Shown: piece after piece, positions 22,824 through 24,046 of the stretch | Layout of the letters: the number at the start of each line of letters is the position of its first letter | Position numbering within the stretch: position 1 is the first letter of the stretch | DNA from: Candidatus Uhrbacteria bacterium | GTDB lineage: Bacteria > Patescibacteriota > Patescibacteriia > JACQRZ01 | NCBI GenBank assembly: GCA_016188385.1 | Contig: JACPHV010000002.1 | Coordinates: 24,116-88,115 of the forward strand | Reading direction: 5' to 3' | DNA length: 64,000 nucleotides | Program-made: the position numbers and the translations under genes | Notes under the pieces: generated by a model | Told to the model about the DNA's origin: nothing | The model's database searches: none | Seen by the model: only the letters and a program-made list of their open reading frames with translations

Positions 22824-22876
22824 TTGTATACATTGCTTGACACAAAATATACAAACTGGTATACTTTGTATACATT
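22824..22876 (+). promoter_or_regulatory. Fic gene promoter: consensus TTGACA (22837-22842), 17-bp spacer, TATACT (22860-22865). Flanked by two direct 11-bp repeats TTGTATACATT (22824-22834 and 22866-22876), each carrying the palindrome TGTATACA.
   Basis: Read directly. The repeats are 42 bp apart centre to centre. One abuts the -35 box and the other lies between the -10 box and the start codon. Confidence 0.55.
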
Positions 22877-22897
22877 CATAAAAGATGTAAACAAAAT

Positions 22898-24046
22898 ATG
22901 AAAGACATCGAAATTGGAGCATACAAAACACAGCCGACTGGTTTTAAGGTATTTATTCCGCATCCTTTTCCACCAAAGGTCGGTTTTAATTTTGACCAAA
23001 GTATTCTCAAAAAGAACAATGAGGCCACCCGTCTGCTCGGTAAATTAGACGGCATTACAAAATTGTTGCCTGATGCTGACTTTTTTCTTTTGATGTATCT
23101 ACGAAAAGATGCGGCTTCTTCCAGTCAGATTGAAGGCACGCGCGCGACTATGATTGACGCTATTGCTACTGAAGTAAAAATAGATACGAAAATACCGGAC
23201 GATGTTGATGATATTTTGCATTACATAAAAGCTCTTAATTATGGGATCAAGCGAATGAAAGAAGATGACTTTCCTATGGTTTTGCGGTTCATCCGAGAAC
23301 TACACAAACAGCTCATGCAAAAAGCGCGGGCGACTCATTTCTCTGATCCTGGTGAATTTCGCAAAAGTCAGAATTGGATCGGCGGCACACGGCCAGATAA
23401 TGCAAATTTTGTGCCGCCACCGGTTGATGAAATGCATCGAGCACTTAATGACCTGGAAAAATTTATCCACGAGAATGGCAATATTCTAACAGTAATAAAA
23501 GCGGGACTTATTCATGCTCAATTTGAGACGATTCACCCATTTTTAGATGGCAACGGAAGAACGGGACGAATGCTCATCACCTTTTATTTTTGGAAAGAGG
23601 GATATTTAGAAAAGCCGGTTCTGTTTTTGTCATCCTTCTTTAAGAAACACCAAAAATTATATTACGAAAGGCTATTAGGTTATCACAATGGTAATGTCTC
23701 TAATTGGATAGAATTTTTTCTTGATGGCGTAGTAGAAATTGCTAATGAAGCAATAGATACAGTCGGAAAAATCACTATATTGCGTGAGAGAGATCTACTG
23801 AAAATTCAAACTCTTGGAAAACGCGCTTCAGAAAGTGCAACTTTGATGTTGCCCAAATTGTACGCTCAACCAATCGTAACTGCTAGCGTTGTTCAAAAAT
23901 GGACGAGTTTTACACGCGCTGGCGCTCAGACCGTGATTGATAGATTTATTCAAATGGGCATTCTAACGCCAAAAGATAAGGGTAAAAAATACGGTCAATC
24001 ATATATGTACAAAAACTACATTGATATTTTTAACAAGAACGAATAA
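22898..24046 (+). CDS. fic: Fic-family AMPylation-type protein, class II, with an N-terminal inhibitory motif.
   Basis: Fic core HPFLDGNGRTGR, i.e. HxFx(D/E)GNGRxxR. Inhibitory (S/T)xxxE(G/N) motif SSQIEG in the N-terminal region. C-terminal wHTH-like tail. Confidence 0.85.
   Translation: MKDIEIGAYKTQPTGFKVFIPHPFPPKVGFNFDQSILKKNNEATRLLGKLDGITKLLPDADFFLLMYLRKDAASSSQIEGTRATMIDAIATEVKIDTKIPDDVDDILHYIKALNYGIKRMKEDDFPMVLRFIRELHKQLMQKARATHFSDPGEFRKSQNWIGGTRPDNANFVPPPVDEMHRALNDLEKFIHENGNILTVIKAGLIHAQFETIHPFLDGNGRTGRMLITFYFWKEGYLEKPVLFLSSFFKKHQKLYYERLLGYHNGNVSNWIEFFLDGVVEIANEAIDTVGKITILRERDLLKIQTLGKRASESATLMLPKLYAQPIVTASVVQKWTSFTRAGAQTVIDRFIQMGILTPKDKGKKYGQSYMYKNYIDIFNKNE

What the first reader, a model, noticed from the sequence alone, without database searches (positions are those of the whole stretch)
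22824..24046. Class II Fic protein driven by a perfect consensus promoter flanked by two TGTATACA operator-like repeats
TTGACA-17-TATACT is a textbook sigma70 promoter, which is unusual in an AT-rich island. Two identical 11-bp repeats TTGTATACATT lie 42 bp apart, which is four helical turns. One abuts the -35 box and one covers the transcription-start region.

The Fic protein has the core HPFLDGNGRTGR and an N-terminal SSQIEG inhibitory motif, so it is class II. Its C-terminal wHTH-like region could bind these palindromes. That would make it an autoregulated, potentially toxic AMPylator.
Basis: partly seen in the sequence, partly recalled or inferred. Interest (0 to 1): 0.5.

Follow-up and report, generated by a model that had tools for sequence, protein, structure and literature searches.

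The report
Self-repressing SoFic-type Fic defence gene
This is an intact SoFic-family Fic (AMP-transferase) gene that carries its own near-consensus promoter interleaved with four copies of a 12–14-bp repeat, almost certainly the operators through which the protein's own winged-helix domain represses it; this is an ordinary kind of system, but a very clear example that reveals a family-wide operator layout.

Summary
TTGACA‑17‑TATACT (with an extended TG) is real and is the best σ70-like site in 13 kb. The repeat TTTGTATACATT occurs exactly twice, 42 bp apart. Two further inverted copies lie in the −35/−10 spacer and just before the ATG, giving four sites (→ ← → ←) 21, 21 and 19 bp apart.

[quoted passage not shown] It matches the SoFic anti-phage model at E = 7e‑108.

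Homology to more than 20 loci from different Patescibacteria lineages starts exactly at the first repeat. The 76-nt control block is 83% conserved, while fourfold sites in the same genes are saturated (37%).

Across 161 SoFic-family loci, 105 have significant upstream repeat families, against 4 of 94 control genes. There are 64 distinct lineage-specific words. Adjacent copies alternate in orientation, the period is 41 bp, and copies overlap the promoter.

S. oneidensis SoFic, reported to bind its own upstream DNA, shows the same signature. CccR is a proven Fic autorepressor.

This is a new member of a known kind, and interest is moderate.

The parts
22822..22835 (+). Operator-like repeat S1 (GTTTGTATACATTG). 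It ends 1 nt before the −35 hexamer and is the left edge of the conserved module.
   Evidence: Exact 12-nt repeat with S3 (D4). Nucleotide homology to L001–L025 begins at 22821–22824. It is the least conserved of the four sites and is absent in L006, L010 and L012.
22837..22842 (+). −35 hexamer TTGACA.
   Evidence: 11/12 promoter. TTGAC is invariant in 19 aligned homologous upstream regions.
22843..22856 (-). Operator-like repeat S2 (plus strand CAAAATATACAAAC, which is the reverse complement of GTTTGTATATTTTG). It fills the −35/−10 spacer.
   Evidence: I5 (86% complementary to S1). Nearly invariant in homologues. It changes together with S3 in L010 and L017.
22857..22865 (+). Extended −10 element, TGg‑TATACT.
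   Evidence: TG present before the second hexamer. TAT.C is invariant in 19 loci.
22864..22877 (+). Operator-like repeat S3 (CTTTGTATACATTC). It overlaps the end of the −10 hexamer and the predicted transcription start (about 22871–22873).
   Evidence: D4. The TTTGT.TA columns are invariant. The start-site position is inferred from the usual −10-to-start distance.
22883..22896 (-). Operator-like repeat S4 (plus strand AGATGTAAACAAAA, which is the reverse complement of TTTTGTTTACATCT). It lies immediately upstream of the ATG.
   Evidence: Conserved as GATGTAAACAAAC or GATAGATACAAAC in homologues. In L017 all four sites read TTTGTTTACAT.
22898..24046 (+). fic gene, 382 aa: a class II, SoFic-type Fic protein (Fic_N + Fic + wHTH).
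   Evidence: Pfam Fic_N 1.5e‑20 and Fic 2e‑19. PADLOC SoFic 6.7e‑108 over residues 15–380. PDB hits to 7cb8, 9vjc, SoFic and CccR 7xux. 100% identical to an NCBI 'Fic family protein [Candidatus Uhrbacteria bacterium]'.
23120..23137 (+). Inhibitory-helix motif S75‑S‑Q‑I‑E79‑G80, of the form (S/T)xxxE(G/N).
   Evidence: Read directly from the sequence. S75, S76, Q77, I78, E79 and G80 are invariant. It aligns with SSRIEN of 9vjc.
23534..23569 (+). Fic active-site motif H213‑PFLDGNGRTGR‑224.
   Evidence: Read directly from the sequence. Invariant.
23819..24010 (+). [quoted passage not shown] The predicted recognition helix is residues 340–352 (RAGAQTVIDRFIQ, nt 23915–23953).
   Evidence: AF2 secondary structure: H308–323, β, H329–336, H340–352, then a β-wing, with pLDDT 75–92. 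Foldseek hits to IclR (2o0y, 67 aa, rmsd 2.4) and MarR-type wHTH. The helix sequence tracks the operator word across lineages.
24050..24099 (+). Hairpin after the stop codon: a perfect 15-bp stem (GTCTTGGCTTTTGGG / CCCAAAAGCCAAGAC) with a conserved loop containing ATTCACCCC…CCTCCTG, followed by an A-run. It marks the right edge of the module.
   Evidence: I2. The stems covary in L001–L005, L007 and L016. It is not a canonical intrinsic terminator.
22729..22761 (+). Half copy (5′ arm plus TTCACCCC) of the same hairpin element, overlapping the stop codon of the upstream 311-aa ORF. It forms a 33-nt direct repeat with 24042–24074.
   Evidence: D1. A third copy lies at 21600–21632 (D1). The same half-element lies 4–10 nt upstream of S1 in L001–L005 and L007.

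Best explanation
The locus is a self-contained, single-gene SoFic-type module.

Proposed mechanism:
- A near-consensus σ70-type promoter drives a class II Fic protein.
- A dimer of that protein uses its C-terminal winged-helix domains to bind four cognate half-sites: S1→, S2←, S3→, S4←. Their centres are 21, 21 and 19 bp apart.
- The sites interleave with the promoter in the order S1, −35, S2, −10, S3 (covering the transcription start), S4, ATG.
- Occupancy, most simply by two dimers on inverted pairs four helical turns apart, occludes RNA polymerase.
- This holds a potentially toxic AMP-transferase at a low, self-limiting level in whatever host the module enters.

What is shown here by computation:
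- the gene's domain make-up and intact motifs;
- the site layout;
- co-inheritance of the control block with the gene;
- purifying selection on the control block;
- family-wide conservation of the geometry with lineage-specific words.

What is inferred:
- that Fic itself is the binder;
- the stoichiometry of binding;
- that binding represses transcription;
- AMPylation activity and its target (EF‑Tu by analogy with SoFic);
- a role in anti-phage defence.
For: 1. Protein identity. Pfam Fic_N and Fic, PADLOC SoFic at E = 6.7e‑108, and intact inhibitory and catalytic motifs that are invariant in homologues.

2. wHTH. The AF2 C-terminal domain is confident. Foldseek finds SoFic 3eqx, CccR 7xux, CbFic2 8cil and 7cb8 at full length, and IclR/MarR-type wHTH for the C-terminal domain.

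3. Co-inheritance. Nucleotide homology with about 20 loci from Magasanikbacteria, Peregrinibacteria, Uhrbacteria, Kuenenbacteria, Parcubacteria and others starts at 22821–22824 (S1). It ends at the stop codon or hairpin, and the flanks are unrelated.

4. Selection. The 76-nt block from S1 to the ATG averages 83% identity in 22 loci. This compares with 37% at fourfold sites, 45% in the upstream flank and 75% for the CDS.

5. Concerted change. All copies in a locus share one word, and the word differs by lineage: TTTGTATACAT, TTTGTTTACAT, GTTGACAT, GTAGACAT, GTTTATAT, GTTGTCAT, CCTAACA, GAAAGGAT and others.

6. Statistics.
- 105 of 161 fic upstream regions have a significant 8-mer family, against 4 of 94 upstream regions of other genes in the same loci.
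- 83% of adjacent copies are in opposite orientation.
- The period has a median of 41 bp (IQR 40–42) over 64 distinct words.
- In 57 of 59 loci with a recognisable promoter, copies overlap it, and in 45 of 59 a copy lies in the spacer.

7. Recognition helix. The sequence of the predicted recognition helix tracks the operator word.

8. Experimental precedent.
- CccR (class II Fic + HTH, PDB 7XUX) represses its own promoter through inverted repeats at −35/−10 as a dimer (PMC9755527).
- Dimeric SoFic binds the 100 bp upstream of its own start.
- That DNA contains 3 of the 5 exact ATCGACAT copies I find upstream of mloA, a count reached by 0 of 500 shuffles.
Against: - There is no experimental evidence for this protein or for any Patescibacteria homologue.
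- The correlation between recognition helix and operator word is not independent of phylogeny.
- The AF2 model is poor for the Fic core (mean pLDDT 63), and no dimer model was made, so the fit between site spacing and dimer geometry is untested.
- CccR's operator geometry differs: a single inverted pair with half-site centres 36 bp apart.
- The promoter consensus is that of E. coli σ70. Promoter usage in Patescibacteria has not been characterised here.
- About a third of family members show no significant repeat family with my 8-mer statistic.
Confidence: 0.78

Rival explanations
1. The repeats are operators for a different DNA-binding protein (a host regulator or a phage-encoded factor), not for Fic itself.
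For: No binding data exist. A neighbouring RhuM-like gene and other island genes could encode DNA binders.
Against: The only gene that always accompanies the repeats is fic. The flanks and neighbouring genes differ in every locus. The word changes with the Fic lineage and with its recognition helix. SoFic and CccR bind their own promoters.
Confidence: 0.08
2. The inverted repeats act as nucleic-acid structure, with S1:S2 and S3:S4 hairpins in a read-through transcript forming an attenuator or translation-masking stem, or as DNA cruciforms, rather than as protein-binding sites.
For: Folded as RNA, 22820–22900 gives two hairpins at −16.4 kcal/mol, z = −2.7. S3:S4 alone gives −6.7 kcal/mol, z = −2.8, and would mask the region just before the ATG.
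Against: - The −35 and −10 hexamers sit in or between the supposed loops, yet they are the most invariant columns.
- A transcript from this promoter would start inside S3 and folds weakly (−5.5 kcal/mol, z = −1.7).
- All four sites share one word, and S1 equals S3 as a direct repeat, which pairing does not require.
- S1 can be lost without any change in S2 (L006, L010, L012).
- The strict 41-bp period across 64 different words is a helical-phasing signature of protein–DNA complexes.
Confidence: 0.07
3. The repeats are mobility sequences (terminal binding sites for a transposase or recombinase), because the conserved module begins exactly at S1.
For: There is a sharp left homology boundary at S1. 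A tyrosine recombinase lies 6 kb away at 16050–16862. Inside that gene, a 27-nt stretch is 81% identical to S1 plus the −35 hexamer (D10).
Against: There is no copy of the word at the right end of the module or anywhere downstream of fic. The sites are phased with promoter elements in 57 of 59 loci. No recombinase is consistently linked.
Confidence: 0.03

Closest known systems
SoFic (Shewanella oneidensis SO_4266 / mloA; PDB 3EQX) and the 'SoFic' single-gene anti-phage defence family
   Same: - Same architecture: an N-terminal Fic_N/DUF4172 dimerisation helix, a class II inhibitory glutamate, a Fic core and a C-terminal wHTH.
- PADLOC SoFic HMM hit at E = 6.7e‑108 over the full length; Foldseek TM about 0.62.
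- Dimeric SoFic binds the 100 bp upstream of its own gene. That DNA carries the same kind of repeated word (ATCGACAT, five copies).
- SoFIC is reported as the second most prevalent defence family in groundwater MAGs.
   Different: - Only about 20–25% identity to S. oneidensis SoFic. It scores 127 bits against the NCBIfam SoFic equivalog cutoff of 550.
- The operator word is different.
- The host is a Patescibacteria (CPR) organism.
- No AS1-like small antitoxin ORF lies downstream, unlike E. coli Sofic.
- Anti-phage activity and the EF‑Tu target are untested here.
CccR of Yersinia pseudotuberculosis (PDB 7XUX), a class II Fic toxin that is also a transcriptional autorepressor
   Same: - Class II motif (SARIEG), a Fic core and a C-terminal HTH.
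- The dimer represses its own promoter by binding inverted repeats next to the −35 and −10 boxes.
- Sequence hit at E = 1.2e‑11 covering the HTH domain.
   Different: - CccR has one inverted pair of 10-bp boxes separated by 26 bp, with half-site centres 36 bp apart. Here there are four sites 19–21 bp apart with a 41–42 bp period.
- CccR is a T6SS-secreted effector that AMPylates FtsZ. Nothing here suggests secretion.
- The CccR dimer is described as back-to-back, unlike SoFic.
CbFic2 of Coxiella burnetii (PDB 8CIL)
   Same: - DUF4172 + Fic + wHTH architecture.
- DNA binding through the wHTH induces dimerisation and switches the enzyme from AMPylase to deAMPylase. This suggests that operator-bound Fic may be the 'safe' state.
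   Different: The DNA binding studied for CbFic2 used generic dsDNA, and its target is host histone H3. No own-promoter operator has been described for it.
Type II toxin–antitoxin autoregulation (for example Phd/Doc, also from the Fido superfamily)
   Same: A toxic enzyme is kept low by negative autoregulation at operators that overlap its own promoter. It travels as a mobile, island-borne module.
   Different: Here the inhibitor (the αinh helix), the DNA-binding domain and the toxin are in one polypeptide, with no separate antitoxin gene. A genuine Phd/Doc-like pair lies separately at 26862–27555.

Membership tests
Fic/Fido domain AMP-transferases (Pfam PF02661) | Active-site motif HxFx(D/E)GNGRxxR within a Fic fold | tested here: met
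   H213‑PFLDGNGRTGR‑224 is read directly from the sequence. Pfam Fic hit at 2e‑19. The motif is invariant in homologues.
Fic/Fido domain AMP-transferases (Pfam PF02661) | Catalytic AMPylation, or another nucleotidyl or phosphocholine transfer, of a target protein | not testable with these tools
   This needs enzyme assays with the wild type and an E79G mutant.
Class II Fic proteins | Inhibitory helix motif (S/T)xxxE(G/N) in the same chain, N-terminal to the Fic core | tested here: met
   S75‑SQI‑E79‑G80 lies 133 residues upstream of H213. It is invariant and aligns with SSRIEN of 9vjc.
Class II Fic proteins | No separate antitoxin gene supplying the inhibitory helix | tested here: met
   No conserved small ORF lies upstream or downstream. 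The module boundaries are S1 and the hairpin, and the flanks are unrelated between loci.
SoFic-type Fic proteins (Fic_N/DUF4172 + Fic + wHTH; InterPro IPR048770 C-terminal domain) | N-terminal Fic_N (DUF4172) domain with the dimerisation helix | tested here: met
   Pfam Fic_N at 1.5e‑20, residues 37–117. AF2 helix 34–56 has pLDDT of about 86–89. Dimerisation itself was not tested.
SoFic-type Fic proteins (Fic_N/DUF4172 + Fic + wHTH; InterPro IPR048770 C-terminal domain) | [quoted passage not shown] | tested here: met
   AF2 shows H‑β‑H‑H‑wing at residues 308–371 with pLDDT 75–92. Foldseek gives full-length hits to 3eqx, 7xux and 8cil, and the C-terminal domain matches IclR and MarR wHTH.
SoFic-type Fic proteins (Fic_N/DUF4172 + Fic + wHTH; InterPro IPR048770 C-terminal domain) | Equivalog of S. 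oneidensis SoFic by the NCBIfam NF046030 cutoff | tested here: not met
   127.2 bits against a cutoff of 550. It is a family member but not an equivalog.
SoFic anti-phage defence system (PADLOC/DefenseFinder) | Match to the system's single-gene HMM | tested here: met
   PDLC03963 SoFic at E = 6.7e‑108, covering residues 15–380 of the protein and positions 5–360 of the 361-position profile.
SoFic anti-phage defence system (PADLOC/DefenseFinder) | Protection against phage by abortive infection | not testable with these tools
   This needs plaque assays. No cultivable host is available.
CccR-type autorepressing Fic transcription factors | Repeated or inverted operator sequences overlapping −35/−10 of its own promoter | tested here: met
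   S1–S4 interleave with −35, −10 and the ATG. The same layout holds family-wide.
CccR-type autorepressing Fic transcription factors | Specific binding of the HTH domain to those sites and repression of transcription | not testable with these tools
   Only indirect evidence is available: co-inheritance, selection, concerted word change, and precedent.
CccR-type autorepressing Fic transcription factors | A single inverted pair with a 26-bp spacer (the CccR geometry) | tested here: not met
   Here there are four sites with centres 21, 21 and 19 bp apart. The family period is 41 bp.
Integron (considered for the surrounding cassette-like array) | IntI-type integrase with the IntI-specific insertion, and attC sites with RYYYAAC / GTTRRRY cores | tested here: not met
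   The recombinase at 16050–16862 is 269 aa and scores 209.7 bits on TIGR02249 against a cutoff of 265. It passes only the XerA-type model. The outer stems of the hairpins read GTCTTGG…CCAAGAC, with no AAC/GTT. The loop is conserved and the stems vary, the opposite of attC.

The most novel reading that the evidence does not exclude
SoFic-family proteins carry a private, co-evolving operator code with a fixed geometry: inverted half-sites repeated every 41 bp. The promoter-bound dimer-of-dimers would be both the repressed state and the enzymatically 'safe' (deAMPylase or inactive) state. Release from the operator array, for example on phage infection, would then derepress the gene and switch on AMPylation at the same time.

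In Patescibacteria this self-contained unit would also move between phyla as a single-gene cassette that lands in the loop of ATTCACCCC hairpins at the 3′ ends of genes. A XerA/IntI-like recombinase such as the one at 16050–16862 might assist this.
Probability: 0.15. Interest if true: 0.65.

Novelty: new member of a known kind. Interest (0 to 1): 0.4.

Why it matters
On its own, the locus is one more SoFic-type defence or toxin gene, in a phylum where such genes are already known to be common.

Its value lies in the comparative result:
- The promoter-interleaved repeats give a concrete, testable operator model for the whole wHTH-Fic family: half-site words, alternating orientation and a 41-bp period.
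- That model includes S. oneidensis SoFic, where binding has so far been localised only to a 100-bp fragment.
- The many natural pairs of recognition helix and operator word could serve as a specificity code for this wHTH class, and as a set of orthogonal autorepressors.
- The sharply bounded module, 79–92% identical across several candidate phyla, also documents recent inter-phylum transfer of a self-regulating defence gene in CPR bacteria.

Tried and rejected
- Chance: rejected. Exact repeats and word families far exceed shuffles and real-gene controls.
- RNA families and tRNAs: none in the window at gathering thresholds, and none in 18.9–27.0 kb at E ≤ 1.
- A downstream AS1-like antitoxin, as in E. 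coli Sofic: no conserved small ORF. The sequence after the hairpin is unrelated between loci.
- TIR or transposon ends: the operator word does not recur at the right end of the module.
- Integron reading of the surrounding array: the integrase falls below the IntI cutoff, the hairpins are not attC-like, only some cassettes have complete hairpins, and no recombinase is consistently linked in other genomes.
- Viral origin: the best homologues on viral contigs are only 35–43% identical, so the close family is cellular (CPR).
- Full-length AF2 model: only the C-terminal half is reliable, and no dimer geometry could be derived.
- The first Python version of the repeat statistic timed out and was rewritten.
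Full report
**Observation**

Reading 22500–24400 confirms the following features:
- TTGACA at 22837–22842;
- a 17-nt spacer ending in TGg;
- TATACT at 22860–22865;
- an ATG at 22898 opening a 382-aa ORF that ends at 24046.

The consensus scan ranks this site first, at 11/12 with an extended TG, among 32 promoter-like sites in 17–30 kb. The total number of such sites is not above shuffles, so only this individual site stands out.

The repeat is exact over 12 nt (TTTGTATACATT, 22823–22834 and 22865–22876, 42 bp apart). 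With up to one mismatch, the 11-mer occurs 7 times in the window against 1.24 expected, a count that none of 100 shuffles reached.

One search also revealed an inverted, degenerate copy inside the spacer (22843–22856). Comparison with homologues revealed a fourth, inverted copy abutting the ATG (22883–22896). The control region therefore reads S1→ | −35 | S2← | TG‑10 | S3→ (covering the predicted transcription start) | S4← | ATG. The site centres are 21, 21 and 19 bp apart.

**The gene**

- Pfam finds Fic_N (residues 37–117) and Fic (130–230).
- The inhibitory motif S75‑SQIE‑G80 and the catalytic motif H213‑PFLDGNGRTGR‑224 are intact. Both are invariant in 15 and in 33 homologues.
- The PADLOC SoFic model matches at E = 6.7e‑108 over essentially the whole protein.
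- The NCBIfam SoFic equivalog model matches full length but far below its cutoff (127 vs 550 bits). This is therefore a family member, not an equivalog.
- The best sequence matches in the PDB are M. marinum FIC 7cb8, 9vjc, SoFic (3eqx and newer entries), CccR 7xux and CbFic2 8cil.
- An AF2 model built on 33 close homologues is poor for the Fic core but confident (pLDDT 75–92) for residues about 250–370. There it shows helix 308–323, a short strand, helix 329–336, helix 340–352 and a β-wing, which is a winged helix-turn-helix.
- Foldseek aligns the model at full length to 7cb8, SoFic, CccR and CbFic2. The C-terminal domain alone matches IclR- and MarR-type winged helices.
- The protein is 100% identical to an NCBI entry from a Candidatus Uhrbacteria MAG, which is probably the source of the window.

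**The module is inherited as a unit**

Homologues at 79–92% amino-acid identity occur in MAGs labelled Magasanikbacteria, Peregrinibacteria, Uhrbacteria, Kuenenbacteria, Parcubacteria, Paceibacteria and others.

In about 20 such loci, nucleotide homology to the window starts at 22821–22824, which is the first base of S1. It stops at the stop codon or shortly after the downstream hairpin. Neighbouring genes are unrelated from locus to locus.

Within these loci the 76 nt from S1 to the ATG average 83% identity to the window. Fourfold-degenerate sites of the same genes are saturated at 37%, and the 76 nt immediately upstream are at background (45%). The control block is thus under stronger constraint than the coding DNA (75%).

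In the alignment of 19 upstream regions, the invariant columns are TTGAC (−35), TAT.C (−10), and the cores of S2 and S3. S1 is the most dispensable site and is missing in L006, L010 and L012.

**Concerted change and family-wide geometry**

Variants within the close family change all copies together. L017 has TTTGTTTACAT at all four sites, and L010 has TTTGTTTATAT at S2 and S3.

More distant homologues (50–63% identity) keep the same layout of S1, −35, S2(inverted), −10, S3 and sometimes S4(inverted), but with other words: GTTGACAT, GTAGACAT, GTTTATAT, GTTGTCAT, CCTAACA and CGTTCATAT.

I scored the best 8-mer family (up to 1 mismatch, both strands) in the 110 nt upstream of 161 family members (35–100% identity, from genomes, metagenomes and viral contigs) against dinucleotide shuffles:
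- 105 of 161 reach p ≤ 0.05: 20 of 25 at ≥70% identity, 7 of 8 at 50–70%, and 78 of 128 below 50%.
- The same statistic on upstream regions of other genes in the same loci gives 4 of 94, and none of these has the characteristic period.

Among the 105 significant loci:
- There are 64 distinct words.
- 260 of 314 adjacent copy pairs are in opposite orientation.
- The distance from a copy to the next-but-one copy has a median of 41 bp (IQR 40–42 when counted once per word).
- Of the 59 loci with a recognisable σ70-like promoter, 57 have copies overlapping it and 45 have a copy inside the spacer.

The predicted recognition helix differs between word groups and is similar within them:
- FTRAGAQTVIDRF with TGTATACA;
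- YSRQGAYNMIERL with GTTGACAT;
- ISxPT[IV]AKS[IV]QH[LM] with GAAAGGAT in more than 14 loci.

This is consistent with self-recognition, but it is not corrected for phylogeny.

**Link to experiment**

CccR of Yersinia pseudotuberculosis (PMC9755527):
- It is a class II Fic protein (SARIEG) with a C-terminal HTH (PDB 7XUX).
- It represses its own promoter as a dimer.
- It binds AGATAATCAT‑N26‑ATGATAATCT next to the −35 and −10 boxes.
- Its DNA-binding helices are about 70 Å apart.

SoFic of Shewanella oneidensis (bioRxiv 10.64898/2026.07.09.737422):
- A 2026 preprint reports that dimeric, but not monomeric, SoFic binds the 100 bp immediately upstream of its own start codon.
- Using the sequences in that paper's Table S2, I find five exact copies of ATCGACAT/ATGTCGAT within 140 nt of the mloA start (0 of 500 shuffles).
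- Three of them lie in the best-bound fragment, F1.

CbFic2 (PMC10628234):
- DNA binding through the wHTH induces dimerisation and shifts the enzyme from AMPylase to deAMPylase.

SoFIC is reported as the second most prevalent defence family in groundwater MAGs (PMC12259885).

**Mechanism proposed**

Shown here:
- an intact class II SoFic-type gene;
- a near-consensus promoter interleaved with four cognate sites;
- co-inheritance, purifying selection and concerted word change with fixed geometry.

Inferred:
- The Fic dimer binds inverted half-site pairs through helix 340–352 of each wHTH. A half-site separation of 19–21 bp corresponds to roughly 65–71 Å of B-DNA, close to the ~70 Å helix separation reported for CccR.
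- Two dimers, four turns apart on one face of the DNA, cover −35, −10, the transcription start and the initiation region.
- This represses transcription.
- A strong promoter combined with tight self-repression would give a low, host-independent expression level. That suits a potentially toxic gene moving between phyla.
- Its enzymatic target (EF‑Tu by analogy) and any anti-phage role are extrapolated.

**Rivals**

- Another protein as the binder is unlikely. Nothing else is linked to the repeats, and the words track the Fic lineage.
- RNA or DNA hairpins (S1:S2, S3:S4) are thermodynamically possible if the whole region were transcribed (−16.4 kcal/mol, z = −2.7). Several observations argue against this:
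  - The promoter hexamers lie in the would-be loops and are the most conserved columns.
  - A transcript from this promoter starts inside S3 and folds weakly.
  - All sites share one word, which pairing does not require.
  - The 41-bp phasing across 64 words points to protein–DNA geometry.
- Mobility-related repeats are unlikely, because the word is absent from the right end of the module.

**Surroundings**

The gene sits in a low-GC stretch of about 16–27 kb. That stretch contains:
- a split RhuM-family gene;
- an unknown 311-aa ORF;
- fic;
- an unknown 62-aa and 604-aa gene pair;
- a Phd/Doc-like pair.

Three consecutive genes end with a 33-nt direct repeat, AATAAGGnGTyTTGGmTTTTGGGyrTTCACCCC. 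Only the copy after fic continues into the 3′ arm of a hairpin.

Related hairpins follow genes in several CPR loci. They have covarying stems and a conserved loop, ATTCACCCC‑N4–6‑CCCTCTG. In seven loci a half-element lies just upstream of S1 and a complete one lies after fic. I could not fit this to a simple recombination scheme.

A XerA/IntI-like tyrosine recombinase lies at 16050–16862, facing away from the array. No recombinase is consistently linked elsewhere, and the features that define an integron are not met.

**Verdict**

The locus is a new member of a known kind (SoFic/CccR-type self-regulating class II Fic).

The incremental novelty is a family-wide operator model, with lineage-specific words, alternating orientation and a 41-bp period. 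It is immediately testable, including on S. oneidensis SoFic. Interest is moderate (0.4).

Noticed in passing
window 21600-21632, 22729-22761, 24042-24099; also 19050-19090 and 26525-26565; L001 2889-2920 and 4150-4205; L002 2390-2445 and 4458-4520; L014 2552, 4160, 5629: A hairpin element follows the stop codons of genes in the low-GC island and in other CPR loci. Its stems vary and covary, its loop is conserved (ATTCACCCC‑N4–6‑CCCTCTG), and an A-run follows it. Three consecutive genes (RhuM, the 311-aa ORF, fic) carry the 5′ arm plus loop start as a 33-nt direct repeat, but only the last copy has the 3′ arm. In seven loci a half-element sits just upstream of S1 and a full one sits after fic. 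It is not a canonical terminator or an attC, and the mechanism is unresolved.
   Followed up: partly
window ~19165-19260, ~24160-24255, ~26705-26805 (partial at ~16950-17020); L007 ~2612-2700: An element of about 80–100 nt recurs in intergenic regions, 60–130 nt after ATTCACCCC hairpins. It has a conserved predicted fold: a closing helix CTATGCG…CGCATAG and an inner hairpin with compensatory changes. RNAalifold predicts 21 pairs, 5 with compensatory changes, from only 4 copies. It matches no Rfam family even at E ≤ 1.
   Followed up: partly
window 16050-16862 (-): A 269-aa tyrosine recombinase lies at the left edge of the low-GC region, facing away from the plus-strand modules. Its best match is the NCBIfam XerA-type 'tyrosine recombinase/integron integrase' model (221.8 bits, cutoff 220). 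It falls below the integron-integrase cutoff (209.7 vs 265). It may simply be the housekeeping Xer gene next to fmt.
   Followed up: partly
window 16619-16645: Inside the recombinase gene, a 27-nt stretch (GTTTGTATACATCGCGATACAGAAAAT) is 81% identical to S1 plus the −35 hexamer of the fic promoter (D10). This may be chance.
   Followed up: no
window 20582-21214 and 21242-21604 (+): A RhuM-family gene (PADLOC candidate system PDC‑S05) is split into two ORFs that cover profile positions 3–139 and 150–248. It is probably a frameshifted pseudogene.
   Followed up: no
window 26862-27008 and 26974-27555 (+): A Phd/Doc-like toxin–antitoxin pair. The 193-aa ORF matches the death-on-curing toxin model TIGR01550 (51 bits, cutoff 38.65), and a small 48-aa ORF overlaps its start. 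This gives the island a second Fido-superfamily toxin.
   Followed up: no
S. oneidensis mloA upstream, fragment F3 and the start of F2 (Table S2 of bioRxiv 10.64898/2026.07.09.737422): About 200–260 bp upstream of the SoFic start there is a second set of four alternating repeats (TGTATAGA/TCTATACA, in 19–21 bp steps; reached by 1 of 500 shuffles). It resembles the window's word and is distinct from the five ATCGACAT copies near the start. It may be an operator for a neighbouring gene or a second SoFic site.
   Followed up: no
L008 2852-3000; L186 ~1262-1376: In two homologous loci, about 70 nt are inserted between S4 and the start codon in use. The ancestral ATG position reads ATA, so the N-terminus is re-initiated downstream while the promoter and repeat block is retained.
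   Followed up: no
L002 35-106 and 2446-2516; L007 131-201 and 2547-2675: The ~70 nt that follow the fic hairpin in the window (24100–24170) occur in inverted orientation about 1.1 kb upstream of fic in two other genomes. There they bracket fic plus one upstream gene, like terminal inverted repeats.
   Followed up: no
window 27920-34372 (+): A 2150-aa ORF has many 'NVGIGTTSP…AKL' repeats and no Pfam match in its first 527 residues. It is likely a giant surface protein of the kind common in CPR bacteria.
   Followed up: no
L181 11806-12825; L014 4661-5608: A second, shorter Fic-domain gene lies directly downstream of the SoFic-type gene in some Magasanikbacteria and Kuenenbacteria loci. L181 also carries a TraG/VirD4-like coupling protein nearby, which suggests a conjugative or integrative island.
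   Followed up: no
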